Below are positions 621 through 34,279 of a stretch of 36,405 nucleotides of DNA, piece after piece (position 1 is the first letter of the stretch; each line of letters starts with the position of its first letter). This DNA comes from a virus. The position numbers and the translations under genes are program-made. The DNA lies in UHGV virus genome UHGV-0210252; one strand, 5' to 3'. A model generated the notes under the pieces. It worked only from the letters and a program-made list of their open reading frames with translations, did not search any database and had not been told where the DNA came from.

Positions 621-643
621 TCTTCCCTATAGTGATAGTTAAG
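621..643 (-). promoter_or_regulatory. Phage RNAP promoter (phiOR-like), TSS about 626
   Basis: Plus strand cctatagtgatagtt at 626-640 = minus strand AACTATCACTATAGG; downstream of gene 19 as in T7. Confidence 0.75.
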
Positions 644-5976: not shown

Positions 5977-5999
5977 AGTTTCCTATAGTGATAGTTTAG
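5977..5999 (-). promoter_or_regulatory. Phage RNAP promoter (phi17-like), TSS about 5982
   Basis: cctatagtgatagtt at 5982-5996; followed on minus strand by leader with AAGGAGG and the gene 17 ATG. Confidence 0.8.
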
Positions 6000-8900
6000 T
6001 CCTTGATGTGGATGCCTTGCTCCTCAAACGTTCCAAGCAACAGCTTCTGGGTAATGGGGTCGTTCGGAACCAGTTCACGGAACGTATTATACATCCCGGT
6101 CATGTAGTCACGCTCGTTGACACGAGTATCAGCCTTGAGGTAGCCAGCCAAGTTGTAAGCCGAAGCGCCAACGTTAGCAGCATATCCGAAAGCTGGAACC
6201 TGCTCCAAGAAGTTACCAACAACATTCATCACAGGGTCACTTGTAGCTGCACCATACGCGATGGCACGTTCAGGCTTCTCTGTAGGCGAACGAGGTAGGA
6301 TAGACGAACGGAGCATCTTAGTGTCCTCGTACCCAGCGATACCCCCAAGAATGTTAGCTACCCCAAGTGGTCCACCAAGATGTGAACTACGCGATAGAGC
6401 CGCATATCCAATCATCGTCGGGTCCAGAGCTTGCTTGAGGTAATCACGGTCTCGGCCATCCTGCATAGCGTAAGCCTTGACGTGCGCCTGAGCCATGTAG
6501 TAGATACCGGCAAGTCCCATAGACATCACAGTTGACAGAGCAGCGTCCATCGCTCGGTTGTTCTTCGTGGCATTATAGAAGGTTCGCATGGTTCGCCCAT
6601 TGATGGACTTGATGACGAAGTTCTTAAACTGAAGGACAGTCTTAGCGAGAGGGCCATAAGCCTTGGCGTCCATGTTTGATAGCTTATGAGGTCGGAGTAA
6701 CGTTTCGTCAGCGATGGTGTCACCCATACGCCACAGGTCCATAGCCCTTGGGTCCTGACTGAACGCCTTCTTGTCCTTGATGGTATACTTCCCGTCTGGA
6801 CCACGAGTCACTGACTCACGGATTAGGGACTTAATACCCTTCCACTGCTCGTCAGAGATACCAGCGGTCTTCAGCCAGCGGTCATCGAACTTACGCTTAC
6901 TACCAGTCAGGCTATGCTCCACGATGTCAGACAGGAAGCCTTGACGTCCAGCATCTAACAGGTAGTTGGTCGTACCGTTGAGGACTTTAGTGAACGGAGA
7001 GCGTACTGCAAGTTCACCAGTGTAATACTTTGCAGATCCTAAAGCAGTAGCCGTAGGTTTACTCAAGGCGCTGTAAGCTCGTAGGCGGTCTATGACATCC
7101 TGTTTAGACGGACGGATTGAGTCATCCAGTTCCTTACCGAAGATAACATTGTGCAGGTCCTTAATCTCTGAGGCCCCTACCTTCTTGTTACGGAAGGCTA
7201 GGTCACGGAACATCGGGACTCCATGCAGCAGCGCACGAACGTTGCCACGAGCAAGCATACCACCAATCTCCGTTAAGTTCTGAACACCCATGTAGGCATT
7301 CTTAGCGAAGAACGATAGGTCTGTCATTGTGCGCATCACGGTAGCGAAGGCCGCATCATCAGCACCATCACGTCTAGCACGACCAGTTAGAATCTTCAAA
7401 GTGTCACGTAAGGTCGAGACCTCACCTTTCAACTTGCCGTCATCGCCAGCCTTGTTCATCATGGTCTCAACCAAGTCCTTCATGTCCTTCGTGGTCTTTC
7501 CTGTACCAGCCATGATAGCAATGTCACCATTAACTCGACGGTTGTATGCCGGGACAATCTTATCCATATCCCACTCACGTAGACTATTTACGCTGAACGG
7601 CTTACCATTTGGCAAGGTTATTTCCATGTCGTTATCGAACAGGTTGCGAGCCTCAAGGAAGTTATTGTTCTCCAGACCAACCAGACCGTTGATGTTTTCT
7701 TCCATTACGGATGAACGCTCAAACTGCTCTGTATGGGAGATACCATAAGCCTTATCATTAGCATACTTCTCTACCATATCCATAGTCACCTCTGGTGCTG
7801 CTTGAGATGCGTTACCAGATGTAGGTTCACCAGCAGTAGTGGTCTGACCATCTACAGCAGTCTTCTGCCCTTTGGCAGCTGCCACAGCCGATTCAGCTTC
7901 AGTTGTTGCTTTGGTGATTCTGTCTCGGACCTTAGCAGCCTGTCCTTTCATGTAGTCAAGACGCTCAGTGTTAATACGGACGTGAGACTTCTGAGTCTCA
8001 ATCATCTGCTTCCGGCTCTCAATCTTAACAGGAATGGTCTTGCTCTTAGGTTTAGCGGCTAGCTTTTCTTCCAACTCCTTCAGCTTAGCTTCATGGGAAG
8101 CCAGTCGGTCCTTTGAGTTCTGGAGTCTCTTTTCACGGTCTGCAACTCGCTTCTCAGCGTTGGTAAGGACATCTTTGAGTTCCGCTACCTTATCAATTGC
8201 CTGTGTAGCCGCATCGTCCAGTTTCATCTGGTCACGGGCTGCTTCTACAGAAGAACGATGATTTGATGCAGTACCTACAGTCTTACCTGCTGCTGGTTGA
8301 GATGCCCGTAACTGCTCTGCTAACATCTCGTCCACTCGCGCCTTGACTTCAGGTCTTGACGCATAGCTTGTCAACCATGACTTCTTGATTGCCTCCTGTA
8401 ACGCCTCTGGGCTTCCAAGCTCATTGATATAAATCTGCTTCATCTGAGAACTATAGACCACAGGAACGTAGGTTCCCTTGAATCTACTACCCGGGAAGAT
8501 AGACTGAGCATCTGTACGACCAAACATCGCTGGGTTCTCCATCATCTCGCGCTTTGCATCAAACTGGTTCTTCAGCAGGTCATAGACTTTCAGTTCCCCC
8601 GGAGTAAGTTCAGCCTTCAGGTTCCCGCTACCATCCTCAATAGCCAAAGCCTCGCGCTTATAAACATCCTCACGCAGAGCTGAGTTATCTCGCCAGAATG
8701 CTGTCTGGAAGTACGGGTCCTTGAGCGCCTCAGTAACAGCATCGTCGATGTCGTTGTAGAACCGATGGTCCACAGCACGAAGTCTCTCGAATACGTCTGA
8801 CGCAGTGGTCCCGATTTTACCTGAAGCCCCTGACTGCATACCAGTTGGTGAACGCACTAAGTCAGCAGCGACTCCACGAATCTCAGGGTTCTCAGACCGA

Positions 8901-10384
8901 AGCAGCTTCAGGCCAATCTCGGTAAGTCCACCAAGGTTCACACCAGCAGCGGCACGTTCAGGCTCAATCACTTCGTCAAAGACTTGACGTGTCTTAGGGT
9001 TCAGAGGGTTCTCACCAATAAGGATTGAACCATCTTCCAGTCGTACACTACCCGGCTCGTTCGGAACGTCTGCGAACTTAACACCTTGATGACTGAAGGT
9101 CTGCTCACCTTCCTGAATAGGTAGACGAGACAGGTCCTGACCATCAACATTACGTGCAGTCTCACGGGCTTCCAGACGTGTAGCCGGACCAGAGAACTCG
9201 TTAGTGGTACGACCTAAGGCTCTGCTTAACCCATCAGCGATAGCAGTCATACCGCCGCCGAAGAGAGCACCGCCAAGGATAGCTTCAGCCACATGAGCAT
9301 CACCACCAGCCACTGAGGTACGGGCCATCTCGGACACACCAGCCAGTGCCCCAGATTGAGCAGCCACGGTGAACATCTTGTTGACTAGCTTACCACCTTT
9401 ACCAACCTGTCCAGCTATAGGAACGTAGGTCAGCGGGTCTACACCAGCACCAATCACACCAGCAGCTAACTGAGCACCAATCCCTGCCTTGGCCTTCTCT
9501 TGGTCCAACTTCTGGTTCTCAAGCGCCAAGTTAATAAGCTCAGTCAGGTTCTGAGGGGAGCCACCAGTAATTACTCCGTAATACTGAGGAAGAACCCCAG
9601 CGTTACGAATCTGGTCAAGCTCCTCACGAGACCACTTATGGTTGTTCCATCGCGTCGGGTTGAACACATCGCCAATGACATCCAGTGAGTCCTCAGTCTG
9701 ACCAGCGCGGATAGCCACGCCGACCATAGAGTTCTTCACTTCAGCTTCTGTAGCCGCACCAAAACCGAACCACGTAGAGCGGCCCTCTCGTTCCTGCATG
9801 GTCTCGCCAGTAGACTTATAGAACATCTCACCGAACGATTCGTTGGGAGCTTCAGGTGCTTGACCCTCAATGTTTAGACCAGCAGCGGTCGGAAGGTTCT
9901 CGCCCAGAGCTACTTTAGGTTTAGCCTTGAGTCCTTCCGTGAGTGCGTCAAATACGTTAGCGCTTACTGGTGGAGTCTTTGGGCTAATGCCATTGAGTGC
10001 TCGTGCGACTCCCTTCTGATAGACTTCAGGGTCGTACCGGGAGCCTGTCTCATGGAAGCTGATAGCTTGAGCCAGAGAAGACAGGGTGTCAGGGTCAGAT
10101 AGGTCGAGACTCTGGGTAGCTGGAATACCAGTTGTGGCCACCACTGAGTCAATATAAGCCTTAGTGTCGTTCTCGTTAGGAGGCGCCCATCGGTTGATAA
10201 TCTTCTCGATGGAGTCATAACCTTGGCGACCGTAGGACAGCAGGTTTTTACCTAAAGCTCGGACGCCAGACTCTGGACTATCGAAGGTGACGAATGCGCC
10301 ATCATCTCCAGTCATTCCTTCCCATTGGTCCTTACTTACCCGGATGTTACCCGGATTGTTATTGCGAATACCACGAGTCGCCAT
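5996..10384 (-). CDS. Internal virion protein D (T7 gp16 family), 1462 aa, with non-T7 N-terminal domain and central coiled-coil insertion
   Basis: Extensive recalled similarity to T7 gp16 from about residue 200 onward (STWFGFGAATEAEV..., GVDPLTYVP, RLEARETARN, MVEKYANDKAYGISH, C-terminal LVPNDPITQKLL). Confidence 0.9.
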   Translation of the reverse strand: MATRGIRNNNPGNIRVSKDQWEGMTGDDGAFVTFDSPESGVRALGKNLLSYGRQGYDSIEKIINRWAPPNENDTKAYIDSVVATTGIPATQSLDLSDPDTLSSLAQAISFHETGSRYDPEVYQKGVARALNGISPKTPPVSANVFDALTEGLKAKPKVALGENLPTAAGLNIEGQAPEAPNESFGEMFYKSTGETMQEREGRSTWFGFGAATEAEVKNSMVGVAIRAGQTEDSLDVIGDVFNPTRWNNHKWSREELDQIRNAGVLPQYYGVITGGSPQNLTELINLALENQKLDQEKAKAGIGAQLAAGVIGAGVDPLTYVPIAGQVGKGGKLVNKMFTVAAQSGALAGVSEMARTSVAGGDAHVAEAILGGALFGGGMTAIADGLSRALGRTTNEFSGPATRLEARETARNVDGQDLSRLPIQEGEQTFSHQGVKFADVPNEPGSVRLEDGSILIGENPLNPKTRQVFDEVIEPERAAAGVNLGGLTEIGLKLLRSENPEIRGVAADLVRSPTGMQSGASGKIGTTASDVFERLRAVDHRFYNDIDDAVTEALKDPYFQTAFWRDNSALREDVYKREALAIEDGSGNLKAELTPGELKVYDLLKNQFDAKREMMENPAMFGRTDAQSIFPGSRFKGTYVPVVYSSQMKQIYINELGSPEALQEAIKKSWLTSYASRPEVKARVDEMLAEQLRASQPAAGKTVGTASNHRSSVEAARDQMKLDDAATQAIDKVAELKDVLTNAEKRVADREKRLQNSKDRLASHEAKLKELEEKLAAKPKSKTIPVKIESRKQMIETQKSHVRINTERLDYMKGQAAKVRDRITKATTEAESAVAAAKGQKTAVDGQTTTAGEPTSGNASQAAPEVTMDMVEKYANDKAYGISHTEQFERSSVMEENINGLVGLENNNFLEARNLFDNDMEITLPNGKPFSVNSLREWDMDKIVPAYNRRVNGDIAIMAGTGKTTKDMKDLVETMMNKAGDDGKLKGEVSTLRDTLKILTGRARRDGADDAAFATVMRTMTDLSFFAKNAYMGVQNLTEIGGMLARGNVRALLHGVPMFRDLAFRNKKVGASEIKDLHNVIFGKELDDSIRPSKQDVIDRLRAYSALSKPTATALGSAKYYTGELAVRSPFTKVLNGTTNYLLDAGRQGFLSDIVEHSLTGSKRKFDDRWLKTAGISDEQWKGIKSLIRESVTRGPDGKYTIKDKKAFSQDPRAMDLWRMGDTIADETLLRPHKLSNMDAKAYGPLAKTVLQFKNFVIKSINGRTMRTFYNATKNNRAMDAALSTVMSMGLAGIYYMAQAHVKAYAMQDGRDRDYLKQALDPTMIGYAALSRSSHLGGPLGVANILGGIAGYEDTKMLRSSILPRSPTEKPERAIAYGAATSDPVMNVVGNFLEQVPAFGYAANVGASAYNLAGYLKADTRVNERDYMTGMYNTFRELVPNDPITQKLLLGTFEEQGIHIKD

Positions 10385-10388
10385 TATG

Positions 10389-12671
10389 TTACTCCTTACC
10401 GATTAGTACGTTTGCGATACCCTCCAATGAGACGTCATTGTACATCCCTCCGCGCTTCTCGATGTTGGCCTCTCGGTCAGCTCGACGTTTATCACCAGCA
10501 GCTTTAGTCCCGACGATACGCGCTCGCTTGTTAGCGTCACGTTCTGCCTGAGCATATGCGGCATCTTGTGCCTTCTGCTGTTGTTCGCGGTAGAGTTTAC
10601 CTACAAGTTCTTTATCGTATCTAATACGAATAGTCCCTGTAGCGTCTTGGAGGAAGATAGAGCCGTTCTGTTCAACAACGGACAACTGAGAGTTCACTAC
10701 CCAAGGGTTGGCCTTAATGAGCTGCTTACGAGCGGTGTCGATAATGTCTCGACCAACCTGCCACGACTCTGGGTTATCCCCTACCATAAGCTGGTGCTTT
10801 GACACCATGCCGATGGACTTACCGTCAGAACCTTCAGACTGGAACGTTACGGTGTTCTCATTCAGCCAGCGTTGAGTCTGCTGAGTTGCAGCGTCAGCGT
10901 TACCTGTACGATAGTACCATGAGTCCCAGACCTTGCGAGCACTTGCGTCCAGAGACGTAGGAAGACGCGAAAGGTCCTTATTCCGAGAGTCGTTCTTCAA
11001 CTCCTGCCACGCCTTGTCTGACTCCATGCGCATCTCACGGCTTTGACTTGCAGCTTGCTTATCAGCTTCAATCATCGTCTGAGGGTCCAGACCCATCTTG
11101 TCCATCTGGTCGAACGTAGAGAACAACTGAGCTTGGTCAGGATACAGAGCAGCAAAACTTGAAGGGTCCTGAGTGTAGGCACGGCGAAGAGATTCGAAGC
11201 GTTGCATCTTGTCTGGGTCGTACTGCCCACGGATGACCGCGGCTTGCCACTCACCAGCAGCGTCCTGAGTCAGCGTCTGGAAGGCATTACGGAAAGGACC
11301 GTTGTTAGTGTCGGCCCTCAACAATGCCACCTTCTGAGCGTCCTTAGCAGCCTCGGGGATGTCCATCTGGTCAATCTGCTGTAGCTTGGCAGACGCATAG
11401 TTGTTCATGTCTGAACGCTTGAACTCTCCTGTAGCTTCAGAGACCGGAAGGTCCTCATAGTTGGTGGACACGTTGTCCCCAGCCAGACGTCGCTGATACA
11501 CTTGGTCAATGACCAGTTGCTTATTCTGGGTCTGGATTAACTTAGTGTTCTCCTTAGCCTGTTCAGCGGACTTACGCTTGACCGCTTCCAATAAGCTGGC
11601 TTCGGCATTAATAAGCATCTGACGCTGAGGCGTTAGCTCTTCACCCGGCTGAAGCAGGTTGTTCTGCTCCTTGAGTTTCTGAATCTGGGCAAGACCAATG
11701 GTTGGGTCATCTTGAAGAATCGCAGACTGAACGCCTAACGCCAAGTCTTCCTGATACTTAGCCACCAGTTTATACTCAGTACCTTGGGCCTCAACCATAG
11801 CAGCGTTGAAGACGTCAGGTCCTACAATCTCTTCGATGGTAGCGTCAACACCATTAAGTGTGATACGCTCGCCACGGACTTGCTGTAGGAAGTTTGAGCC
11901 TCCTGACTTCTGGATTGCGTCACGGACCGTCTGGGTGATGACCTCCCGTGCTCGCTGGTCCGAAGGGATAGCAGCAGTAGTCAGTCCATCACGAAGCTAG
12001 CCCATGAAGGTCTTACCTGACTCAGGTGAACGCATCAGGTCGCCATCGTTCAGGAATGAGTTCATCTCAATACGAGTATTCAACATTGCTGTCTCTTCAG
12101 ACTGCTTACTGAAATACTTATTGAAGGACCCATAGATAGCGATGTTGCGGTCTGTGATGTTATCGTTGAACCCTCGCTGGAAGAACTCATCGGTAGGGTT
12201 AATACCAGCCTCTTCCGCATAGGACTTAGCTGCATCCTGAAGTCTCTGGTGGCGATATTCTTCCATTTCCTGACGTGTGCGGAACTCACCGTTCTGAATC
12301 TTAACGTTAATCTCGTCGTCTACAGCAAAGGCAGCATTACGACCAGTCTTGACTCGAAGTGCTTCCATAGCGTAAGGGTCATCCTGATACAGCAATGTGC
12401 CGTTCTGGATAGCCTCACGTCTTTGCTGAGGTGTCAGCTTACGGATAATCTCGTTAGACCGCTCGTCTGCCCGTGTCTTCTCATCGTCCTTGAACTGCTT
12501 GTACAATCCTGTCCCAGACTCAACGAAGTTAGTCAATGCACGAGCCAGCCCGGAGTCCCCAGTAGGAGCCTGAACGTTGGCTGCTTGGTAGTTGACGGCG
12601 ATAGTTTTACCCGGTGCTCTGCCACGACCCATAGTCCGATTAGCCAGAGCTGATTCAATATTACTAGCCAT
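10389..12671 (-). CDS. Internal virion protein C (T7 gp15), one reading frame of 761 codons interrupted by an in-frame TAG at 11997-11999
   Basis: Track ORFs 11997..12671 and 10389..11798 are in the same frame; hand translation of 11996..11799 is open and T7-like (LRDGLTTAAIPSD...); similarity to T7 gp15 on both sides of the stop. Confidence 0.85.
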
Positions 12672-13750: not shown

Positions 13751-13800
13751 AAGGGCCTATAGTCCCTATAGTGATAGTTAAGGTAAATCTATAGGCCCTT
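13751..13800. repeat. Perfect 12-bp inverted repeat (aagggcctatag / ctataggccctt) enclosing the phi13-like promoter core
   Basis: Seen directly; arms at 13751-13762 and 13789-13800, promoter 15-mer at 13765-13779. Confidence 0.6.
13760..13782 (-). promoter_or_regulatory. Phage RNAP promoter (phi13-like), TSS about 13765
   Basis: cctatagtgatagtt at 13765-13779 between gene 12 stop and gene 13 start. Confidence 0.8.
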
Positions 13801-13807
13801 CAATAAG

Positions 13808-16165
13808 TTAGACGGAACGAGCTTTCTTAGCGTATGACGCCTCCCAGCCACACCCAACGATGGACACTGGGGTAGGATAATCGGACTCTAAGGTTAGACT
13901 CGTGGTTAATGCGTTACCATTCATAGCGAAGCGATACTGACCATCCCCAATGTTGGTAGTCCCGATGGTTTGCTGACCAAGGGTGTACCCATTAAAGGTG
14001 TTCACGAACTCCCGCTCTCCGTTTCTTACAATGAGTCTCAGAGCGCCAGTGTCTTTGTAGTTGACCCAAGCCCGACGAAGCTGTAGACGACCAGTGTCTT
14101 CAGACTGAGTGCCACTCTCGTCTTCAATCTTAATCAGGAACCGTGAGAACTTGTAGGACATCAGATAAGACCGTCCGATGAACACTGTACGTCCAGACCA
14201 ATCGCCGTTGAGGATAACCACAGTAGAGCTACTGGTCAAGTCCCCAAGGTCCACATAGGCACCCTGACTGTCAATCAGATAGTACCGACCGGGAGACGGA
14301 GCGTTGCCACCATAAGCAGCACCAATGTCAACCGTAGTCTTATAGGTGTCAGCATTATATGAGCCAATTGGAATTACCATAGACACCTTGGAGTCAACGT
14401 GGAGTCTATACGGCTCTAATGGAAAGTCAGTTGCCTCCTTGATGAACTTAAGGTGCTCAAGGTCCACACCTCCTTGGTGCTGACGAACAATGAACATGGT
14501 AGAGCCAATAGAAGCAGACGCCAGAATCTTATCAGCTTTAGGGAACTCCCAGTGTGACCAAGAGGCTTGAAGCTGTACGCCGTCCTTAAACAAGAACTTG
14601 TAGAGGTAGATTCGGTTGTATGCACCTGTAGAGTTGACGCAGATGTAGTTCTCAGTCCCTGTGCCCTGAATGTCAAACACCCCGTTAGGGATATAGGACA
14701 GTACGTGACCAGTGGTATCATCGGCATCCTTCACGTCAGACACATCTGCTACAGCGAAGTATCGCTTAATGCTGGTGAATGACCCACGAGGTGCTGAGAA
14801 GAAGACTGAGCGTCCTACAGCGAACGGTCGGGCATTATCTCCTAAGGCAAACTCTGAGCCTACATCAAGTTGGATAGACTTCGAGGTAAGGACCCCTGAG
14901 CTTGTCATCACGAACTGCACCTCATCTGACCAAAGTAGTAGCTGCTCACTAAACGGAACGGCATACTTAAGGACTGAGATTCGAGGGTTACTTACAGCTA
15001 CATCAATAGGATCATCGTCACCCAATGTCGCCACACTCTTAGGGAAGAACGCAAAGTAGCTGGCTGAACGGCTCATGATTACGTTCTCGCCTGACAAGAA
15101 CCCCAGCCTATTCCTGTAGAAGAACACATCGTTAATCGTAGAATCCACGAAGCTAGGCATAGGGTTTGTGTCATCATTACCAGCCCCACGCTTAGACCAG
15201 TCCAGAGTCTTGAACTCAAATGAGCCGTCAGATTGTCTCACCAGAGCATGAGGCATTGTGGTGTTATCGAACCCAGTGACCACTCCCGGCTCTACTGTCT
15301 CCTTCCACGTCTTAGTGTTGGAGTCATACATCACGTAATATTCATCGGCGCTACTGTTGGTCTCACCTTGAATCTTAATGATGTACCCATTTGGAGCCGC
15401 AAGAGGCAACTTAGAGATTGTCTGCACTGTGTCGAGGACTGGGCTGATTAGCTGGTTAGCGTAGCCATCCTCCGTCTCCACTGAGTTAATATCGGTCCCT
15501 GAAGGAGCTGTGATTAGCAGGAAGCCAGACCCAAGGTCAAACGTGAAGTCTGGATAGGCAGCAACAAGAAGGTCTCTAAGAGCTGAACCTATGTCCTGAG
15601 CGTCAACCTTAGGTGGGTCATTCTCGGCATCATTACCTGCTGGTAGCTTATGCGAGACCTTGACTCCTCCGTTGATTCCCACCTTAAGGGTTCGACCATA
15701 CTGTCCACCACGCAGGTTAATTAAAGCTCGTGCTTTGCGGTTATAACCAGAGTGTGACTTCTCGCTTCCACCTTTGACGACAACCTTACGGTTAACTACG
15801 AACGTATAGTCTGCTACGGTAACGACACGGATGTCATCTCGTGGGTTTGAGGACTTAACGTAGTCTACCACACCTGACACTGAGTATTGATTGCCACTCA
15901 AGTCAACTACCTGAATGTTGTACCCATTGAACACGATGTAATACTGCTCATGCTCGTCACGGTTAATCAGGTGGAACTTAGGGTTACTCCCAACGTCGAT
16001 GTTAAGACGTCTCTTGAAGACTGTAGGTGGGCGCTTCTGGAGGCCATCACTCTCGGATGACCAGCAGTTAACCTGTGCCTCGCCTTGGTCTGAGAACCTC
16101 AGTATATCAGGCTGTTGGCTAATGCCACCTTTAAGGTTCTTGATTGATTGAGTAATTAGTGGCAT
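13808..16165 (-). CDS. Tail tubular protein B (T7 gp12)
   Basis: 785 aa; strong similarity to T7 gp12 (SIKNLKGGISQQPDILR..., HLINRDEHEQYY, LQLRRAWVNY, CGWEA). Confidence 0.95.
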   Translation of the reverse strand: MPLITQSIKNLKGGISQQPDILRFSDQGEAQVNCWSSESDGLQKRPPTVFKRRLNIDVGSNPKFHLINRDEHEQYYIVFNGYNIQVVDLSGNQYSVSGVVDYVKSSNPRDDIRVVTVADYTFVVNRKVVVKGGSEKSHSGYNRKARALINLRGGQYGRTLKVGINGGVKVSHKLPAGNDAENDPPKVDAQDIGSALRDLLVAAYPDFTFDLGSGFLLITAPSGTDINSVETEDGYANQLISPVLDTVQTISKLPLAAPNGYIIKIQGETNSSADEYYVMYDSNTKTWKETVEPGVVTGFDNTTMPHALVRQSDGSFEFKTLDWSKRGAGNDDTNPMPSFVDSTINDVFFYRNRLGFLSGENVIMSRSASYFAFFPKSVATLGDDDPIDVAVSNPRISVLKYAVPFSEQLLLWSDEVQFVMTSSGVLTSKSIQLDVGSEFALGDNARPFAVGRSVFFSAPRGSFTSIKRYFAVADVSDVKDADDTTGHVLSYIPNGVFDIQGTGTENYICVNSTGAYNRIYLYKFLFKDGVQLQASWSHWEFPKADKILASASIGSTMFIVRQHQGGVDLEHLKFIKEATDFPLEPYRLHVDSKVSMVIPIGSYNADTYKTTVDIGAAYGGNAPSPGRYYLIDSQGAYVDLGDLTSSSTVVILNGDWSGRTVFIGRSYLMSYKFSRFLIKIEDESGTQSEDTGRLQLRRAWVNYKDTGALRLIVRNGEREFVNTFNGYTLGQQTIGTTNIGDGQYRFAMNGNALTTSLTLESDYPTPVSIVGCGWEASYAKKARSV

Positions 16166-16174
16166 AGGCCCTCC

Positions 16175-16402
16175 TTAAATCATACTCATTAGGACGTATC
16201 CTTCAGAGATGTCACCAACGTCAGCAATGTGGACAACCTTACGCGCTACCTGTTGTCCAGTATACCCGTTGTCCCACTCATTCAGGATAAGCCAATCGCC
16301 AACCTTAAAGTCCCGGTCGTTAAGTCTCAGTTCTGCTGTCTTTAGACCTAGCTGTACCGGACCAAAGTGCTGGCGGTGAATCTTCAGGTTGTGACTAGCC
16401 AT
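16175..16402 (-). CDS. DUF3850 / ASCH-like small protein (75 aa)
   Basis: Pattern H-LKI....F..V..G.KT.ELR.NDRDF.VGD.L.L.EWD..YTG matches my recollection of the DUF3850 (PUA/ASCH-like) family; not part of the T7 gene set. Confidence 0.7.
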   Translation of the reverse strand: MASHNLKIHRQHFGPVQLGLKTAELRLNDRDFKVGDWLILNEWDNGYTGQQVARKVVHIADVGDISEGYVLMSMI

Positions 16403-16968
16403 TAGTCCCTCCCGATGTCTGACATCATGTTGTAGCGACCAGTGTCCATCTCGTACTCCATAACCTGCTGATAGAGTTCTGCTTCCTGCTCACGAAGGTA
16501 TAGCTCTGACTCTGGGCTACCGAAGAACTTAGCGTTGAACTCTCGGCTAGCTTTAGTGACGATGTAGTCCCTGAAGACCACAGGCATCTCAGAGAATGGC
16601 TTCATCTCCACAAGCTCTACCGTGATAGGGTCGGTGAAAGTGGTTGACTGAGTGGACAGGTCGTACAAGTATCCACCCATGTTGCTGTAGTAGCTGGTGG
16701 CCCCAGCAGTCATTACACGAAGATATGACGGAAGGAATCGAATCCTATTGTCTTGGACATCAGGTGTCAGGACAGCAGCTTCGTTGATGTTAAAGTTCCA
16801 GCCTTTAGCTTGGACCTGACGATTGACACGATGCAGGATACGTTGAGCGTTCGAGACGTCAGCGTTCCCCTCGTCAAGCTGTAGGACTGCTGGTTCACCG
16901 ATAGCTGCTAACATATCGTTTATGGCGTCTAAGTCATCGTTAGCATTCAGTGGAATGTATTGAGCCAT
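16402..16968 (-). CDS. Tail tubular protein A (T7 gp11)
   Basis: 188 aa; similarity to T7 gp11 (DAINDMLAAIGEP, RILHRVNRQVQAKGWNFNI, YIVTKASREFN, MEYEMD). Confidence 0.9.
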   Translation of the reverse strand: MAQYIPLNANDDLDAINDMLAAIGEPAVLQLDEGNADVSNAQRILHRVNRQVQAKGWNFNINEAAVLTPDVQDNRIRFLPSYLRVMTAGATSYYSNMGGYLYDLSTQSTTFTDPITVELVEMKPFSEMPVVFRDYIVTKASREFNAKFFGSPESELYLREQEAELYQQVMEYEMDTGRYNMMSDIGRD

Positions 16969-18309: not shown

Positions 18310-18332
18310 GTCTCCCTATAGTGATAGTTTAG
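18310..18332 (-). promoter_or_regulatory. Phage RNAP promoter (phi10-like), TSS about 18315
   Basis: cctatagtgatagtt at 18315-18329; minus-strand leader GGGAGAC...GGTTTCCC...AGGAGA...CATATG resembles the T7 gene 10 leader. Confidence 0.85.
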
Positions 18333-19310: not shown

Positions 19311-19333
19311 TTGTTCCTATAGTGATAGTTTAG
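19311..19333 (-). promoter_or_regulatory. Phage RNAP promoter (phi9-like), TSS about 19316
   Basis: cctatagtgatagtt at 19316-19330. Confidence 0.8.
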
Positions 19334-20898
19334 GCTTGAGCCATGTCCTCACCAGCTCCCTGACCTACAGCAGCACCCATGTTAGCACCAGCAGCACTAG
19401 CACCTTGGACAACTGCCTGTTGAGACGACTGCTCAGCCATGCGCTGAATCTTCTCGTCTTGCGTCAGGAGTAGACCAGCGGTGTCGATACCCAGAGCGTT
19501 CAGGAGTCGCAGCTTAAGGGTCGGCAAGTTGATGTCCGGGTCCTGAGATAGCGGCTGAAGACCAGTCATCATGTTAACAGCCTGAGTTAGCTTCTCCAAG
19601 TCCTGACCACGACCTAACGCTTCTAGACCAGTGGATACCGTAGGCTCTACCGCTTCTTTCGGAAGGTCTGGAATCATGCCAGCAGACTGAAGCTGGTTCA
19701 TCAGCACACGGACTATAGGTAACTGAAGCTCTTGTGACTGTACCGAGTACACTCCACCTAAGGTCGCCTCCAGTTCTCCAGCAACATAACGAATCTCTTC
19801 AGCAGTGACTCGCTCGGCATTACGCTGAACAGCACTATTGAGAAGGAAGGCCCAGCCTAAACGTTGCTCGATAGCGTCAGCCACCGACTTGGCAATCGTA
19901 AAGTCCTGACCTTTCGTCAGTTGCAGGAAGTTGATGTCCTCGACGCGACCAGCCACGAACTCACCTGTAGCCGCCGTGTTCAGACGACGAGGTTGCGTGA
20001 TACCATTCGGGTTAACGAGGCCCACCACCTTGGAGGCTACCTTAGCCATTTTGGTGATAGCTTCTGTAATCGTCTCCAGCGAGTTCAGGTCCCCAAGATA
20101 CTCCTCGCAATAAGAACGACCATAGTCTTCACCGTCCAGTCGAACCATTCGTACCGGGATGTATGGACATGCAGTCAGTGGGTAGGAACCCTCGGTCCCT
20201 GCTACCTCAATGCCTTCCACTTCTTCATAGCGCAAATACTCGTCGTCCTGACGGTAGATGTGCGTATATACTTCCAGCTCTGTGTCAGGATCATAGTCGT
20301 CTGCGTTGAGTTGTGACTTCACGTCTTCCGGTAGAGCACTAAACGCTACCTTGTCGAGAGTCACAATCTGCAAGATGTTACCGAACGCATCACGTTGAAC
20401 AACGTAAGACACTAAGCGGTACATTCTCATGGGACTGTAGGTCCCCTGTTCAGGCTCTGGAATGTAGAGCAGACAGTTACCGGAGACGATAAGCTGCTTA
20501 AGAGCCTCAAACAATGGGACACGGAAACTGTTAGTCTCCATGTAGGCCATCAACACACGCTCGACCATAGCCAGCCCTTCGTCAACACGAGCAGCCGCCT
20601 CTGAGTCCTGACTCAAGGTCTTAGCCTCATATTCGGAGACTGTTAGTCGCATCCACGGTGATTGAGGGAATAGCGCCAACATCAGCTTTGCAGCCAAGTT
20701 GTTCAAGCAGCGAGCACCTACAGCTTGCCACGGAGTGGTGTACTCAGTAGATGAGTTGTCGGACTCCTTAGGAAACAGTGACGGGATAGTGACAGCAGCA
20801 CAGTTCTGAGCGCGTGTCTCATATGGCTGTCTACCGTTCTTCAGTCTATCATAAACTGCCTTCGCGCCTTCAGCAGCAAATCCTTCACGTTCAGCCAT
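19330..20898 (-). CDS. Head-to-tail connector / portal protein (T7 gp8)
   Basis: 522 aa; strong similarity to T7 gp8 (YETRAQNCA, TPWQAVGAR, YRLVSYVVQRDAFGN, RVTAEEIRYVA). Confidence 0.95.
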   Translation of the reverse strand: MAEREGFAAEGAKAVYDRLKNGRQPYETRAQNCAAVTIPSLFPKESDNSSTEYTTPWQAVGARCLNNLAAKLMLALFPQSPWMRLTVSEYEAKTLSQDSEAAARVDEGLAMVERVLMAYMETNSFRVPLFEALKQLIVSGNCLLYIPEPEQGTYSPMRMYRLVSYVVQRDAFGNILQIVTLDKVAFSALPEDVKSQLNADDYDPDTELEVYTHIYRQDDEYLRYEEVEGIEVAGTEGSYPLTACPYIPVRMVRLDGEDYGRSYCEEYLGDLNSLETITEAITKMAKVASKVVGLVNPNGITQPRRLNTAATGEFVAGRVEDINFLQLTKGQDFTIAKSVADAIEQRLGWAFLLNSAVQRNAERVTAEEIRYVAGELEATLGGVYSVQSQELQLPIVRVLMNQLQSAGMIPDLPKEAVEPTVSTGLEALGRGQDLEKLTQAVNMMTGLQPLSQDPDINLPTLKLRLLNALGIDTAGLLLTQDEKIQRMAEQSSQQAVVQGASAAGANMGAAVGQGAGEDMAQA

Positions 20899-21301
20899 CT
20901 ACGTGCCTCCATGTTTTACCTGTTAATACGTCAGACAGCGTTCTCCTAGCTACTCCCGGATATGCAGAGGTAAGCTCTGTCGCTGTTAGCCCTGACTTTC
21001 GTATGGACTTAACATCTTCGGCTGTTAGCTTTGAGTTGTAATGGCTGTCACTATGTGGAGCGTTCTTTCTACCTTTTGAAACACAGTCTACCATGTTATC
21101 GCTATAAGTACCAACGCTCAGGTGTTCTGGATTGACGCATAGTCTATTGTCGCAGGAATGCATCACCACTAGACCTTCCGGTATGGGACCTTTGTGTTTT
21201 AGGTAGGACACTACATGCGCTCCCCGCAGCTTACCTGCATACCACTTCAGGCCATATCCAGCATTATTTACGCAGCCCTTATGCAGTATGCAGTCTGTCA
21301 T
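20891..21301 (-). CDS. Free-standing HNH homing endonuclease (gene 7.7 position)
   Basis: 136 aa with HSCDNRLCVNPEHL HNH motif; lies between genes 7.3 and 8. Confidence 0.8.
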   Translation of the reverse strand: MTDCILHKGCVNNAGYGLKWYAGKLRGAHVVSYLKHKGPIPEGLVVMHSCDNRLCVNPEHLSVGTYSDNMVDCVSKGRKNAPHSDSHYNSKLTAEDVKSIRKSGLTATELTSAYPGVARRTLSDVLTGKTWRHVDG

Positions 21302-22519: not shown

Positions 22520-22542
22520 AAGTCCCTATAGTGATAGTTTAG
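22520..22542 (-). promoter_or_regulatory. Phage RNAP promoter (phi6.5-like), TSS about 22525
   Basis: cctatagtgatagtt at 22525-22539. Confidence 0.8.
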
Positions 22543-24345: not shown

Positions 24346-24943
24346 CTTTCTGTATTCTCCCATTACTGGAAGTGTCGGACTATATCATCAGTCTTTGAGG
24401 TGACTGTCTGGCGCTTCGGGTTACGTGGGAATCTCACCCACGGCCCTACTCCTTTCGGATAGTCTCTACGCCTTCCACTCTCTAATCCACCCACAGGCGG
24501 CTGAGAACGACACATTGAATACTTCGGCTAACTTCGTTCCAGTACACCCAGTCTCTACCCAGTAGTCTCGTGCTTCTAGCTTCCTAGCAGCGTATCGCTC
24601 TTGGTTGGTCTTGACTAAGTGTGAGTCCCGGTCTAATACTTGTAGATGTTCGACGTTGCAACAAGCTCTATTACGACACTTGTGGTCTACTTCGAAACCT
24701 TCAGGTATTGGACCGTTAGCTTTAATCCATACAGTTCTATGATACATCTCAAGGACACCGTTAGTCCTCTTTCGGAAGTATCCATCCTGATTCAATTTAT
24801 GTGACGTAGGGATTATGCAGCCAGTCTCAGTGGCCTCAAGAATTAACTTCTTGCCTCTCATACATCCTCCCTATGGCTTGGCTCGGTATTGTCCCATTAG
24901 GAGTTCACCGAGTTCACCAGATTTAATGTGCACCATGATGTTA
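24346..24943 (-). mobile_element. Putative group I intron (598 nt) in the DNA polymerase gene, carrying an HNH homing-endonuclease ORF
   Basis: Separates WVH from DELQ in the polymerase; candidate P1 (exon GUGCAU with intron GUGCAC, U.G at splice site), terminal G before the 3' exon, R-like GUAGAGACUA and S-like GAUAUAGUCC elements, CGUGGG/CCCACG hairpin between them. Confidence 0.7.
24466..24861 (-). CDS. Intron-encoded HNH homing endonuclease
   Basis: 131 aa with VDHKCRNRACCNVEHL HNH motif; own RBS (AGGGAGGA) and ATG inside the insert. Confidence 0.8.
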   Translation of the reverse strand: MRGKKLILEATETGCIIPTSHKLNQDGYFRKRTNGVLEMYHRTVWIKANGPIPEGFEVDHKCRNRACCNVEHLQVLDRDSHLVKTNQERYAARKLEARDYWVETGCTGTKLAEVFNVSFSAACGWIREWKA

Positions 24944-26959
24944 ATGCACCCATGCCATGTACGCGAAGTCTCCTTCCCAGCCGTGGACATACCCGGCTTC
25001 TTCGAGCATACGCTCTGTCTCGACAATCCAGTGCTTACAGACCACCGCACCATCCCCCTGAAGCAAGGCGTTAAGTGCTGAGTGTGGCGACCGGATGTGA
25101 ATACGGCGACCATCCAGACCTTTCAGCCAGCGACGTTTCCACTTCACGATGTTCTCACCGTCTACCCACTTGGACTCGGAGATGAGAGTGTTTTGCACAG
25201 CTTCCCTGAGGTCCTTGATGGCTGGTGTACCCTCAATGAATTTCTTCATTAGGGCCGCACCTTCCTTCTTGCCACCGCCAACTATCAGTCCAATCTTAGC
25301 GGCCCCTGCACCATACAGGAACGCATAGATGAACGTCTTAGCGTTATTACGGAAAGCATCGTGGTCGTGGCTAGACTTGTCGCGTGGGACGTTAGGTGCT
25401 AACCCAGCGTTGACTGCGTTGGCCCAGTGGATGTCACCTTCGACCACAGTCTTCGCATAGTCGCCACCATCAAACGGAGCCGCTCGGTTCCCCAGACAAC
25501 GAAGCTCAAGACCTGAAGCATCCACACCTACTTGAATCCAAGGGTCTGGCTTACCGTCCTTCTTGTTCCACGCTGCACCGAAAGCACCACGGCAAGTCTC
25601 ACCATATGGAGCACCGTTAGCCGGGACCTGAGCCATGTTTGGTGAACTATGAGTTGCACGTCCGGTTACTGCACCGCATGGGTTGATTGAACCGTGCATA
25701 CGTCCGTCTGGGCCTACAAGTTTCAACCATGCGTTCTTACCTTCAGCCGCCTGACCGATGCGCTTCTGGACGACCAGATACTCACGGACCAGCTCTACGC
25801 AAGCCTGAGCCTCTGCGTCTGGTAACTTAACGTGCTCTAACGTCTCGTCATCGACTACAGGTTTCCCGGTGTCAGTGAAGTCCACAGGCTCCCAGCCACG
25901 CTCAATCACGACTTTCGCTAAGTGGTCTCCGCTCCCAGGATTAAACTCAACGTAAGTGATAGGTGTGAACGGTGCTCCCTCCCCCGTGTCTCGTGAGTCG
26001 AACTCGCAAGGCTCCAGACCTAAGCGTTGAGCTTTGTTCTTCGGCTTCTTGAATACCGACCCGACCTTAGGATACACGACTCGTGGATACTTCGGAAGGT
26101 CCTTGCCTGTCCGTGGATGCCTGAAGAACTCCTTGCCACCCTTCGGTGCATACCAGCTACCGAAAGTCGAACGCAGCTTGTCCAGCAGCTCTGCACGTTT
26201 GACGGTGAGTTCACGATATAAGCCTTCGACCATCTCGGTGTTCATCGGATAGCCGTTACGTTCCATCTTCGCACAGGTCCACGCAGCATCATGTTCCAGA
26301 CGCAACGCATAAATCTGGTCGAAAGCGAACTGTTCAGACTGGAAGTAATACTTGTCAGTCAGGAACTTCTTGAACAACGCCAGTGTGACCACAACGTCTT
26401 GAACGTTATAGTCCAGCATCTCCTGAGACGGGAACAACCATTCGTCCCCAGCCTTATATTCGATACCTTCGGCCTTGCATTTGGTAACGTAATCGTGTTT
26501 GTACTCACCTTTCATTTCACCGAGACGATAGCCCCAAGCCTCAAGAGACTGACGGCCCATCATCTGAGGTGGCAGACGTCCAGCTTTAACCGCGCCCATG
26601 TCTGAGAACTTAATGTTTGGATACATCAAGCGCCCCAGCACCAAGGTATCAATCATCTTGTGTTTCGGGAAGTTAAAGCGTTTCCCAAAGTACAAACGCT
26701 TCAGCTTGTCTATAGCCGGGACGTCATAGTTGATACCGTTATGGAAGACCAGCATACCCGTAGGCGTTGCGGCAATTTCTTCCACCTTCTGTACATACTC
26801 TTTGAAGCCACCGACGATACCGACCATCGGCGCTACCCCATACTTAAGGGTCTCATTCGACTCGGCATTAATCAGGACCCCACAATGGAACTGGGACACG
26901 GTGTCAAGGAGACCGTTTGTCTCGATGTCCGAACCCCAAATATCCTTAAGGTCAAACAT
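24944..26959 (-). CDS. DNA polymerase (T7 gp5) 5' exon
   Basis: 672-aa ORF with strong T7 gp5 similarity (FHCGV, HNG.NYDVPA, VQDVVVT, GSWYAPKGG, INPCGAVTGRATH, DASGLELRC, AKTFIYAFLYGAG, FAYMAWVH); last codon of the track ORF (TAA 24941-24943) assigned to the intron. Confidence 0.95.
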
Positions 26960-29055: not shown

Positions 29056-29078
29056 CCATCCCTAAGGTGATAGTTTAG
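29056..29078 (-). promoter_or_regulatory. Variant phage RNAP promoter (phi3.8 position), TSS about 29061
   Basis: cctaaggtgatagtt at 29061-29075: two changes in the -3/-2 region (CACCTTAGG versus CACTATAGG); may be weak or non-functional. Confidence 0.5.
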
Positions 29079-31442: not shown

Positions 31443-31465
31443 TCTGTCCTACAGTGATAGTTTAG
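31443..31465 (-). promoter_or_regulatory. Variant phage RNAP promoter (phi2.5 position), TSS about 31448
   Basis: cctacagtgatagtt at 31448-31462 (one change at -2). Confidence 0.6.
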
Positions 31466-31623
31466 GTCTCAGGACGAATCCGTCCTACCACAAACCCAGC
31501 GTCCTCATACTCTTGGGACTTAAGGGTAGCCTCTTCAAGAGACTTTGCGTACACCGGAACCTCGAAGGACTGAACGCGACCCTCAAGCTCCACGATGTAC
31601 TTCTTCTTCTCAACCTCAGTCAT
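31462..31623 (-). CDS. Host RNA polymerase inhibitor (T7 gp2), 53 aa, hand-translated
   Basis: [53 protein letters not shown]; SFEVP.YA..L.EA and AGF.V.R.RP match T7 Gp2. Confidence 0.75.
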
Positions 31624-31739
31624 AAAATCTCCTTGTCGAGAATCTCTTCCAGCTTAACAAGTTCCTCTTCGGATAAATCAGTGAAGTCCACGAACTCCTT
31701 AATAAGCTGACACACAAAGTTAATCTGGTCTTGGTTCAT
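31620..31739 (-). CDS. gp1.8-position small acidic protein (39 aa), hand-translated
   Basis: [39 protein letters not shown]; stop overlaps gp2 ATG (ATGA). Confidence 0.4.
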
Positions 31740-31817
31740 AAACCGCGCTCCTTCCATTGGTTGTATAACGTAATGTAGTCCGGATTGAGAGTCTTCTCAT
31801 ACATCTCCCGGCACCAC

Positions 31818-32536: not shown

Positions 32537-32559
32537 GTAGTCCTATAGTGATAGCTTAG
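32537..32559 (-). promoter_or_regulatory. Phage RNAP promoter (phi1.5/1.6 position), TSS about 32542
   Basis: cctatagtgatagct at 32542-32556 (one change at about -13). Confidence 0.7.
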
Positions 32560-34214: not shown

Positions 34215-34260
34215 GGTTAATCATGAAGGCCACGACTTTGAGTCATGACCTTGAGTCTAA
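34215..34260 (-). promoter_or_regulatory. RNase III-type processing hairpin (R1.1-like)
   Basis: Third copy of ATGAAGGCCAC...ATGACCTTGAGTCTA, immediately downstream of the phi1.1-like TSS. Confidence 0.55.
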
Positions 34261-34279
34261 TCCTATAGTGATAGTTTAG
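34257..34279 (-). promoter_or_regulatory. Phage RNAP promoter (phi1.1-like), TSS about 34262
   Basis: cctatagtgatagtt at 34262-34276. Confidence 0.8.

What the first reader, a model, noticed from the sequence alone, without database searches (positions are those of the whole stretch)
16175..16402. DUF3850/ASCH-like gene inserted between tail tube genes 11 and 12
A 75-aa ORF with the conserved pattern of the DUF3850 (PUA/ASCH-like, putative RNA-binding) family sits between two tail genes; its start overlaps the gene 11 stop (ATGA-type coupling), so it is probably co-expressed late. T7 has no gene at this position. The function of this family in phages is not established.
Basis: partly seen in the sequence, partly recalled or inferred. 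Interest (0 to 1): 0.45.

Follow-up and report, generated by a model that had tools for sequence, protein, structure and literature searches.

The report
Mini ASCH-like gene between tail genes
A real 75-codon accessory gene of K1F-like (T7-family) phages sits between two tail genes and encodes a miniature ASCH/PUA-type base-pocket protein; it is already annotated in more than 150 phage genomes, it is not needed to build tails, and its biochemical job has never been tested.

Summary
Window 16175-16402 (minus strand) is a 75-aa ORF that matches Pfam DUF3850 (E 1.6e-19) and ASCH (E 7.7e-6). It lies between tail tube gp11 and nozzle gp12 of a Kayfunavirus. Its ATG overlaps the gp11 stop as TAATG (not ATGA). 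It has no phage promoter of its own and is under purifying selection (dN/dS 0.17).

It is not new. The identical protein is in phage TM1, about 155 phage records carry it at this slot, and CR44b calls it gene 11.05. K1F, ZG49 and about 22% of sampled relatives lack it precisely, so it is dispensable and very unlikely to be structural. In other phages the family sits in replication/recombination modules.

Best guess: a cytoplasmic, late-expressed base-flipping reader or N4-acyl-cytosine hydrolase. This is inferred and untested.

Interest is low to moderate. The slot is a recombination hot spot: relatives have it empty, carry divergent alleles, a degenerate copy, or an Endo VII remnant.

The parts
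16175..16402 (-). DUF3850/ASCH-like gene ('gene 11.05/11.5'), 75 aa, 8.5 kDa, pI 6.4; stop TAA at 16175-16177, ATG at 16400-16402
16407..16413 (-). Shine-Dalgarno GGGAGGG for the DUF3850 gene, inside the last codons of gene 11 (GGGAGGGACTAATG). In K1F and ZG49 the same element drives gp12 directly.
   Evidence: read directly from sequence
16402..16968 (-). gene 11, tail tubular protein A (gatekeeper), 188 aa; its stop TAA at 16402-16404 overlaps the DUF3850 ATG by one base
16166..16174 (-). 9-nt spacer GGAGGGCCT. It starts immediately after the DUF3850 stop and supplies a separate Shine-Dalgarno for gp12. It is part of the 237-bp segment absent from K1F, ZG49 and Midid.
13808..16165 (-). gene 12, tail tubular protein B (nozzle), 785 aa
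16997..17014 (-). T-phi-like intrinsic terminator hairpin plus T-run, between gene 10 and gene 11. Genes 11, DUF3850 and 12 are reached by read-through, as in T7.
   Evidence: T7 T-phi position
18313..18330 (-). phage-RNAP promoter (AAACTATCACTATAGGGA) upstream of gene 10; nearest promoter upstream of the DUF3850 gene
13763..13780 (-). next phage-RNAP promoter downstream (phi13); marks the end of the gene 10-11-DUF3850-12 unit

Best explanation
The ORF is a genuine, expressed, non-structural accessory gene. It is transcribed late as part of the gene 10-11-12 unit, by read-through of the T-phi-like terminator, and it is translated by coupling to gp11. Its product is a stand-alone 75-residue ASCH/PUA-like beta-barrel of the DUF3850 subfamily. 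This barrel keeps the ASCH 'GxKxxExR' octapeptide (Gly19, Lys21, Glu24, Arg26) at the same positions as in YqfB and EOLA1. In those proteins these residues line a narrow pocket that receives a flipped-out or free N4-acetylcytosine base and hydrolyses the acyl group. I therefore propose that the protein works in the cytoplasm as a base-pocket protein, acting on a modified cytosine in RNA, DNA or a free nucleoside. The most likely activity is that of a small amidohydrolase ('eraser'); failing that, it is a reader. It is not a tail component.

Shown: gene reality, family and fold, conserved pocket residues, dispensability, transcription context. Inferred: catalysis, substrate and biological benefit.

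For: Conservation: Lys21, Glu24, Arg26, Asp29, Arg30 and Gly35 are invariant even in relatives of 34-57% identity. In 28 distinct alleles from this very slot, Glu24, Arg26, Asn28, Asp29, Arg30, Gly35 and Asp36 never vary, and Lys21, His4 and Lys7 vary once each.

Literature: all 19 ASCH proteins tested, both GKTR and GKER types, removed ac4C34 from E. coli tRNA in vitro, and the octapeptide Lys and Glu were essential (bioRxiv 10.64898/2026.02.27.708502). In EOLA1 the pocket is K21/E24/R26 (bioRxiv 10.64898/2026.08.01.741249).

Expression: Shine-Dalgarno plus TAATG coupling. No own promoter. dN/dS 0.17.

Non-structural: K1F, ZG49, Midid, SH4, Ro45lw and 13 of 60 sampled relatives lack the gene cleanly. 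In other phages the family sits beside replication and recombination genes. The CR44b record flags mass-spectrometry matches for genes 10A, 11 and 12 but not for 11.05.

Not a general nucleic-acid coat: pI 6.4.
Against: No DUF3850 protein has been assayed, and neither ASCH preprint tested one or mentions phage proteins.

The protein is 25-45 residues shorter than every ASCH enzyme tested. It lacks the helical insert that carries Glu74 in YqfB and Tyr81 in TthASCH.

Position 7 faces the pocket and is Ser/Thr in YqfB and the TRIP4-like clade. Here it is an invariant Lys.

The family's own invariant N28-D29-R30-D31 motif has no counterpart in characterised ASCH enzymes and is unexplained.

E. coli already has YqfB, so a salvage role would be redundant.

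Fusions to the DnaA C-terminal HTH and to the ParB-CTPase fold, together with replication-module contexts, point to DNA rather than tRNA.

Some ASCH proteins (ZmASCH, TRIP4) show other or no nucleoside activity.

No acetyltransferase is enriched among the neighbours.
Confidence: 0.42

Rival explanations
1. Non-catalytic reader. The barrel only binds a (modified) base or a short stretch of RNA or DNA, as YTH, EVE and SRA domains do. It acts by occupancy, for example by masking a site on phage or host nucleic acid or by recruiting a partner. This is what the database label 'RNA-binding protein' implies.
Against: The strict invariance of a Lys/Glu/Arg constellation identical to the ASCH catalytic pocket, plus Asp29 and Arg30, is more typical of an active site than of a reader cage. 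Reader cages are usually aromatic. The protein has pI 6.4 and no basic surface. No binding data exist for any DUF3850 protein.
Confidence: 0.25
2. Counter-defence factor. The protein removes or sequesters an acyl or other mark, or a small nucleotide signal, that a host immune system installs or uses. That would explain its patchy, accessory distribution.
For: Presence/absence polymorphism among close relatives. It evolves faster than its neighbours: pN 0.09-0.26 against 0.002-0.05 for gp11. The family is very widespread on phages, prophages and an ICE. ASCH genes accompany GNAT-EVE and R-M/tRNase operons in hosts.
Against: There is no significant match to PADLOC models (best E 0.007, partial). 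No co-varying partner gene was found. There is no experimental link. Late expression is poor timing for a first-line anti-restriction factor in a T7-type infection.
Confidence: 0.15
3. Tail or virion accessory protein. Its place between gp11 and gp12 reflects a role in tail assembly or ejection, and the protein is packaged.
Confidence: 0.05
4. Functionless passenger. The ORF is a remnant of a mobile cassette, kept open only because translation through it feeds gp12.
For: The slot is a hot spot. LI10P1 carries an Endonuclease VII remnant fused to the first five codons. CR44b gene 11.05 has lost Lys7, Asn28, Asp29 and Arg30. Clean deletions are viable.
Against: dN/dS is 0.17 and family-specific polar residues are retained across 28 alleles. 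gp12 has its own Shine-Dalgarno after the ORF. Base composition has become like the rest of the genome.
Confidence: 0.06

Closest known systems
The same gene in other Kayfunavirus genomes (e.g. Escherichia phage TM1 'hypothetical protein'; PE3-1 and EcoDS1 'RNA-binding protein'; JSS1 'activating signal cointegrator'; CR44b gene 11.05)
   Same: Same slot, same 1-nt overlap with gene 11, 75 aa. The TM1 protein is 100% identical, and about 155 phage records are at least 80% identical.
   Different: Nothing of substance. CR44b's copy is degenerate in the family motif.
PDB 3IUW, Enterococcus faecalis 'activating signal cointegrator' (structural-genomics DUF3850 protein, 83 aa)
   Different: It is bacterial or prophage-borne, not in a tail operon. 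It also has no assigned function.
E. coli YqfB and other ASCH N4-acetylcytidine amidohydrolases (TthASCH 2DP9, human EOLA1)
   Different: The phage protein is 25-80 residues shorter, with no helical insert (no Glu74/Tyr81 equivalent). It has Lys instead of Ser/Thr at position 7 and an extra invariant NDRD motif. Sequence similarity is marginal (profile E 0.3-0.5). Activity is untested.
P2-like phage orf91 (Yersinia phage L-413C orf91, DUF3850)
   Same: Homologous domain (43% identity). It is also a small accessory gene translationally coupled to the preceding essential gene.
   Different: 150 aa with a C-terminal extension. It follows replication initiator gene A and is therefore early, not late.
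ParB-CTPase-DUF3850 fusion proteins of prophages (PNAS 2025, PMC12704722)
   Same: Same DUF3850 domain. They are enriched on phages and prophages.
   Different: They are fused to a CTP-binding ParB fold and encoded next to parA. The window protein is stand-alone, and the genome has no ParA/ParB.

Membership tests
Pfam DUF3850 (PF12961) | Score above the curated gathering threshold over the full-length model | tested here: met
   70.3 bits against 22.9; model positions 2-76 of 77
Pfam DUF3850 (PF12961) | Fold equals that of the solved family member 3IUW | tested here: met
Pfam DUF3850 (PF12961) | Family-invariant residues H4, K7, K21, E24, R26, D29, R30, G35 | tested here: met
   All are present in the window protein and invariant in alignments A3 and A5
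ASCH superfamily (PF04266; PUA-like beta-barrel) | Pfam gathering threshold | tested here: met
   27.0 bits against 21.2, though only model positions 2-63 of 103 are covered
ASCH superfamily (PF04266; PUA-like beta-barrel) | Semi-conserved octapeptide GxKxxExR | tested here: met
   G19-L-K21-T-A-E24-L-R26, aligned in register with YqfB 19-26
ASCH superfamily (PF04266; PUA-like beta-barrel) | [quoted passage not shown] | tested here: met
YqfB-type (GKTR) N4-acetylcytidine amidohydrolase | Catalytic Thr24 in the octapeptide | tested here: not met
   Glu24 occupies that position
YqfB-type (GKTR) N4-acetylcytidine amidohydrolase | C-terminal helical region carrying Glu74 | tested here: not met
   The protein ends at residue 75 and has no helix after residue 17
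GKER / TRIP4-like ASCH deacetylases (TthASCH, EOLA1) | Lys + Glu (+ Arg) of the octapeptide | tested here: met
   K21, E24 and R26 are conserved. Roles are as described.
GKER / TRIP4-like ASCH deacetylases (TthASCH, EOLA1) | Ser/Thr at position 7 facing the pocket | tested here: not met
   Invariant Lys7
GKER / TRIP4-like ASCH deacetylases (TthASCH, EOLA1) | Hydrolysis of ac4C (free or in tRNA) | not testable with these tools
   Needs purified protein and TLC or LC-MS assays
T7-type tail structural proteins | Conserved and required across tail-forming relatives | tested here: not met
   Absent from T7, K1F, ZG49, Midid, SH4 and Ro45lw, and from 13 of 60 sampled records
T7-type tail structural proteins | Presence in purified virions | not testable with these tools
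   The only indirect evidence is that CR44b record notes list MS matches for genes 10A, 11 and 12 but not 11.05. The B1 study analysed selected gel bands only.
Homing endonuclease / mobile cassette | Nuclease domain (HNH, GIY-YIG, LAGLIDADG, Endo VII) | tested here: not met
   Only DUF3850 and ASCH hits. By contrast, LI10P1's replacement insert hits Endonuclease_7.
Known anti-phage defence or annotated bacterial families | Significant match to PADLOC or NCBIfam models | tested here: not met
   PADLOC best E 0.0073 (partial); NCBIfam no hit

The most novel reading that the evidence does not exclude
The DUF3850 proteins of phages are the smallest natural ASCH enzymes. They act as phage-encoded 'erasers' of an N4-acyl (or related) mark on cytosine. 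The target would be either host tRNA (ac4C34 of elongator tRNA-Met, retuning decoding late in infection) or a mark or toxic nucleotide produced by host acetyltransferase- or tRNase-based immunity. That would make this gene a new class of anti-defence or epitranscriptome-editing factor carried by thousands of phages.
Probability: 0.15. Interest if true: 0.65.

Novelty: already known. Interest (0 to 1): 0.25.

Why it matters
As a genome feature it is ordinary. The gene is deposited and annotated in more than 150 Kayfunavirus records, with an identical protein in phage TM1.

Its residual value is as a handle on a very large orphan family: 19,123 clusters at 50% identity, mostly on phages and prophages. 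Kayfunaviruses offer natural isogenic-like pairs with and without the gene, with clean, translation-preserving junctions.

The conserved Lys21/Glu24/Arg26 pocket gives a concrete and cheap biochemical test, N4-acyl-cytidine hydrolysis. That test became meaningful only with the 2026 ASCH deacetylase preprints. A positive result would give a function to DUF3850 and would reveal phage manipulation of a nucleic-acid acyl mark.

Tried and rejected
1. Partner-gene search. tblastn of all 44 window ORFs against four genomes lacking the gene and four carrying it found no ORF with the same presence/absence pattern.

2. Neighbour enrichment in about 50 unrelated phage and prophage loci gave only generic replication, recombination and nin-region families, with no acetyltransferase or other specific partner. 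This sample was retrieved through patterns that include NDRDFKVG and is biased to that motif. Motif conservation was therefore re-checked on tblastn-derived distant members.

3. Extensions fused to the domain were scanned. Eight of ten have no Pfam domain, one has the DnaA_C HTH, and one has a sub-threshold Rv2632c-like hit.

4. PADLOC, NCBIfam, Rfam and tRNA scans found nothing.

5. Sigma-70 promoter and terminator scans around the gene gave no more hits than shuffled sequence, apart from the T-phi-like hairpin.

6. Base composition shows no foreign signature.

7. Virion proteomics in the literature was uninformative. The phage B1 study excised selected bands and did not even detect gp11 or gp12. 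The CR44b paper itself does not discuss mass spectrometry.

8. Enterobacter phage 04_vB_Eclo_IJM was fetched to look for a second ORF in the slot, but the record is fragmented and I did not use it.

10. The antisense ORFs at 16209-16379 and 16229-16345 (+) were dismissed, because variation follows the minus-strand codon phase.

Full report

Yes. The window is a T7-family genome written in reverse, so all genes are on the minus strand. The ORF listing gives a 75-aa ATG ORF at 16175..16402 (-). It lies between a 188-aa ORF (16402..16968) and a 785-aa ORF (13808..16165). Pfam identifies these as Tube (gp11, E 3.6e-46), DUF3850 (E 1.6e-19, 70.3 bits against a cut-off of 22.9; also ASCH, E 7.7e-6) and Phage_nozzle (gp12). 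PHROGs places the small protein in phrog_986, 'RNA-binding protein' (E 9e-35). The only PDB sequence relative is 3IUW (E 1.2e-10).

On the coding strand the junction reads GGGAGGGAC TAATG GCT. A GGAGG Shine-Dalgarno lies inside the last gp11 codons. The ORF ends TAA and is followed directly by GGAGGGCCT ATG, which is gp12's own ribosome-binding site. T7 has a 23-nt spacer and no gene between genes 11 and 12.

**2. Is it a gene?**

Across 14 Kayfunavirus copies the pairwise dN/dS is 0.17, against 0.03 for gp11, and 40 of 63 variable nucleotides are third codon positions. Base composition is unremarkable: GC is 0.478 against 0.50 +/- 0.03 for 228-nt windows.

The K1F-type phage promoter AAACTATCACTATAGGGA occurs ten times, always on the minus strand, where 0.03 occurrences are expected by chance. 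None lies between the copy upstream of gene 10 (18313-18330) and the copy upstream of gene 13 (13763-13780). A T-phi-like hairpin with a T-run sits between genes 10 and 11.

The gene therefore has no promoter of its own. It is transcribed with the late genes 10, 11 and 12 and is translationally coupled to gp11. No Rfam family or tRNA gene is present.

**3. Where does it occur?**

The window is a Kayfunavirus. The nearest record is Escherichia phage TM1, at 98.6% DNA identity over the locus and with a 100% identical protein. tblastn finds the protein in 562 phage records. About 155 are at least 80% identical, and those listed are all Kayfunavirus-type genomes. They are annotated variously as hypothetical protein, RNA-binding protein, DUF3850 protein or activating signal cointegrator. 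Citrobacter phage CR44b named the gene 11.05 in 2014. As a feature, then, it is already known.

The slot is polymorphic.

- **Empty, K1F type.** K1F itself, ZG49 and Midid lack exactly 237 bp and read GGGAG(G/A)GAC TAATG CC. There, gp12 uses the initiation region that the DUF3850 gene uses here.
- **Empty, SH4 type.** SH4 and Ro45lw lack the gene and keep an 11-nt spacer, TAGGAGGTGAT.
- **Frequencies.** In a spread sample of 60 of the 212 records hit by a K1F junction probe, 13 have an uninterrupted junction, 34 carry +237 nt, one carries +128 nt, and 12 match on one side only. Most of the one-sided hits have a small gene after gene 11.
- **Divergent alleles.** Alleles of 84%, 69% and 67% protein identity (L017, L087/L088, L089) occupy the same slot with the same 1-nt overlap.
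- **Mosaicism.** Synonymous divergence is near saturation (pS 0.55-0.72). In L087 gp11 has pS 0.19 to the window while the DUF3850 gene has pS 0.72.

Each empty-site type keeps features of its matching filled type. The K1F type looks like a deletion between the two ATGs. The SH4 type looks like a deletion between the two TAAs that keeps the GGAGGTGAT Shine-Dalgarno seen downstream of the L017 allele. From this I infer that the gene is an old resident of the lineage, lost repeatedly and shuffled by recombination through the highly conserved gp11. This polarity is an inference, not a demonstration.

Two further states show that the slot is a hot spot. Kayfunavirus LI10P1 keeps the first five codons (MASHN) fused to the C-terminal half of an Endonuclease VII domain (PF02945, E 5e-14). 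CR44b's 11.05 still scores as DUF3850 (26.6 bits) but has lost Lys7, Asn28, Asp29 and Arg30, and has Glu24 changed to Asp.

No other window ORF co-varies with presence or absence of the gene in four lacking and four carrying genomes.

**4. The wider family**

A profile search of 1.84 billion cluster representatives finds 19,123 proteins at E <= 1e-3, and the word-indexed search finds 6,617 clusters at 90% identity. Most are stand-alone proteins of 76-230 aa, and some carry two tandem domains.

In about 50 unrelated phage and prophage loci the gene lies in the early, replication/recombination or 'nin'-type region. Neighbours include GPA, primases, ResIII helicases, NinB/NinG, RusA, RecU, a Dam methylase, late sigma-like regulators and the small terminase. 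Four annotated examples:

- In P2-like L-413C, orf91 overlaps the end of replication gene A.
- In Shigella phage DS8 it lies between the helicase and the primase.
- In Gordonia phage Polly it lies between RecE/RecT and a DNA methylase.
- In a T1-like phage it lies in the early region, near polynucleotide kinase.

One fusion carries a DnaA C-terminal HTH. The literature reports ParB-CTPase-DUF3850 fusions enriched in prophages and encoded next to parA, and a DUF3850 gene on the ICE TnSmu1. The position inside a tail operon is therefore unusual for the family. That fits a permissive landing site better than a tail function.

**5. What the protein looks like**

AlphaFold2 with a 126-sequence alignment gives pLDDT 97.1. 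The model has strand 3-9, helix 10-17 and strands 23-27, 37-43, 47-61 and 69-74.

hhalign aligns residues 11-44 with YqfB 11-46 in register: Lys21 on Lys21, Glu24 on Thr24, Arg26 on Arg26, and F32-K-V-G-D36 on F-K-T-G-D.

Invariant or nearly invariant residues across the family are His4, Leu6, Lys7, Val16, Lys21, Glu24, Arg26, Asn28, Asp29, Arg30, Asp31, Gly35, Asp36, Leu40 and Glu42. A set of distant members retrieved without motif bias still keeps His4, Lys7, Lys21, Glu24, Arg26, Asp29, Arg30 and Gly35. The 28 distinct alleles found in the Kayfunavirus slot keep them too. The protein is 8.5 kDa with pI 6.4, so it is not a basic, non-specific nucleic-acid binder.

**6. How it most likely works**

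Two 2026 preprints change what the ASCH octapeptide means. Statkeviciute et al. (10.64898/2026.02.27.708502) found that all 19 ASCH proteins tested removed ac4C34 from E. coli tRNA in vitro. These had either Thr (GKTR) or Glu (GKER) in the motif, and the octapeptide Lys and Glu were essential in TthASCH, EOLA1 and TRIP4. The EOLA1 preprint (10.64898/2026.08.01.741249) describes the acetylated base entering a narrow pocket formed by K21, E24 and R26, with a Ser/Thr at position 7 facing it.

The window protein has K21, E24 and R26 at exactly these positions, and they are invariant in its family. I therefore commit to this model: a cytoplasmic, late-made, stand-alone base-pocket protein that accepts a flipped-out or free modified cytosine, and that most probably hydrolyses an N4-acyl group.

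The steps that are shown are gene reality, fold, pocket residues, dispensability and transcription context. The steps that are inferred are catalysis, substrate and benefit to the phage.

The caveats are substantial.

- No DUF3850 protein has been assayed.
- The protein lacks the C-terminal helical region that supplies Glu74 in YqfB and Tyr81 in TthASCH.
- Position 7 is Lys, not Ser/Thr.
- The invariant NDRD loop is unexplained.
- E. coli already has YqfB.
- The family's contexts and fusions lean towards DNA.

I give the whole statement about 0.4, a pure reader about 0.25, a counter-defence role (which could coexist with either) about 0.15, and a tail-structural role or a functionless passenger about 0.05 each.

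**7. Comparison with what is known, and novelty**

The protein is a member of DUF3850 and of the ASCH superfamily, since every defining feature I could test was met. It is not a YqfB-type (GKTR) enzyme, because Thr24 and the Glu74 region are not met. It shares the Lys/Glu/Arg pocket of the GKER / TRIP4-like clade but not its Ser/Thr7. It may therefore work like those enzymes without being filed with them.

The feature itself is already known and annotated, and the window copy is identical to a deposited protein. The open question is the function of DUF3850. That question is not specific to this window, although Kayfunaviruses would be a convenient system in which to answer it.

**8. Verdict**

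Interest is 0.25. The most novel reading not excluded is that this is a phage-encoded minimal ASCH 'eraser' acting on host tRNA or on a defence-installed acyl mark (probability about 0.15, interest if true about 0.65).

Noticed in passing
window 11997-11999 (-), inside gp15 (10389-12671): The internal virion protein C gene carries an in-frame amber codon TAG at codon 225, where K1F has TAC (Tyr). The preceding residue also differs (Gly against Ala). The rest of the 2283-nt gene is colinear with K1F, at 95% identity with no gaps. A truncated gp15 should be lethal, so this is a sequencing error, an amber mutant, or growth on a suppressor host.
   Followed up: partly
L097 (Kayfunavirus LI10P1, OZ035801.1) about 180-450: In the same gene 11 / gene 12 slot, the first five codons of the DUF3850 gene (MASHN) are fused to the C-terminal half of an Endonuclease VII domain (PF02945 positions 43-81, E 5e-14). 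The insert is 128 bp instead of 237 bp. This is a remnant of a homing-endonuclease-type gene that replaced the DUF3850 gene.
   Followed up: partly
L098 (Citrobacter phage CR44b, HG818823.1) 1650-1874: Gene 11.05 is a degenerate DUF3850 copy (26.6 bits). Family-invariant Lys7, Asn28, Asp29 and Arg30 are lost and Glu24 is changed to Asp, but the ORF is still intact and 74 aa long. The record's notes list mass-spectrometry matches for genes 10A, 11 and 12 but not for 11.05.
   Followed up: partly
window 24466-24861 (-): An HNH_3 endonuclease ORF (131 aa, E 7e-16) is 100% identical to K1F gp19B. In the K1F record that gene lies inside the two-piece (joined) DNA polymerase CDS, so the window's DNA polymerase gene (main ORF 24941-26959) is probably interrupted in the same way. 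Other relatives have only 43-46% identical versions.
   Followed up: partly
window 20891-21301 (-): A second HNH_3 endonuclease ORF (136 aa, E 1.6e-13) lies immediately upstream of the portal gene. It is only 31-48% identical, or partial, in the eight Kayfunavirus genomes compared.
   Followed up: no
window 34263-34742 (-): A 159-aa early-region ORF has a T3 gene 1.05 domain (PF25755, E 4e-25). It has no tblastn match in any of the eight Kayfunavirus genomes compared. The small ORF at 31620-31757 is also absent from all eight.
   Followed up: no
window 624-641, 5980-5997, 13763-13780, 18313-18330, 19314-19331, 22523-22540, 29059-29076, 31446-31463, 32540-32557, 34260-34277 (all -): Ten copies of the phage RNA-polymerase promoter AAACTATCACTATAGGGA (0-3 mismatches; 0.03 expected by chance) define the transcription units of the genome.
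   Followed up: yes
L087/L088 (ENA metagenome contigs) against window 16175-16968: There is a sharp mosaic boundary at the gene 11 / DUF3850 junction. gp11 has synonymous divergence 0.19 from the window, while the adjacent DUF3850 gene has 0.72 and gp12 is the 789-aa type. Recombination breakpoints therefore fall at this junction.
   Followed up: partly
window 5996-10384 (-): The gp16 homologue is 1462 aa, against 1295 aa annotated in K1F and ZG49. tblastn covers it only in parts, which suggests an inserted or replaced segment.
   Followed up: no
proteins P0151-P0156, P0246, P0257: Several of the best-scoring family members contain two DUF3850 stretches in one polypeptide (172-340 aa). These are tandem-domain versions of the otherwise stand-alone protein.
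   Followed up: no
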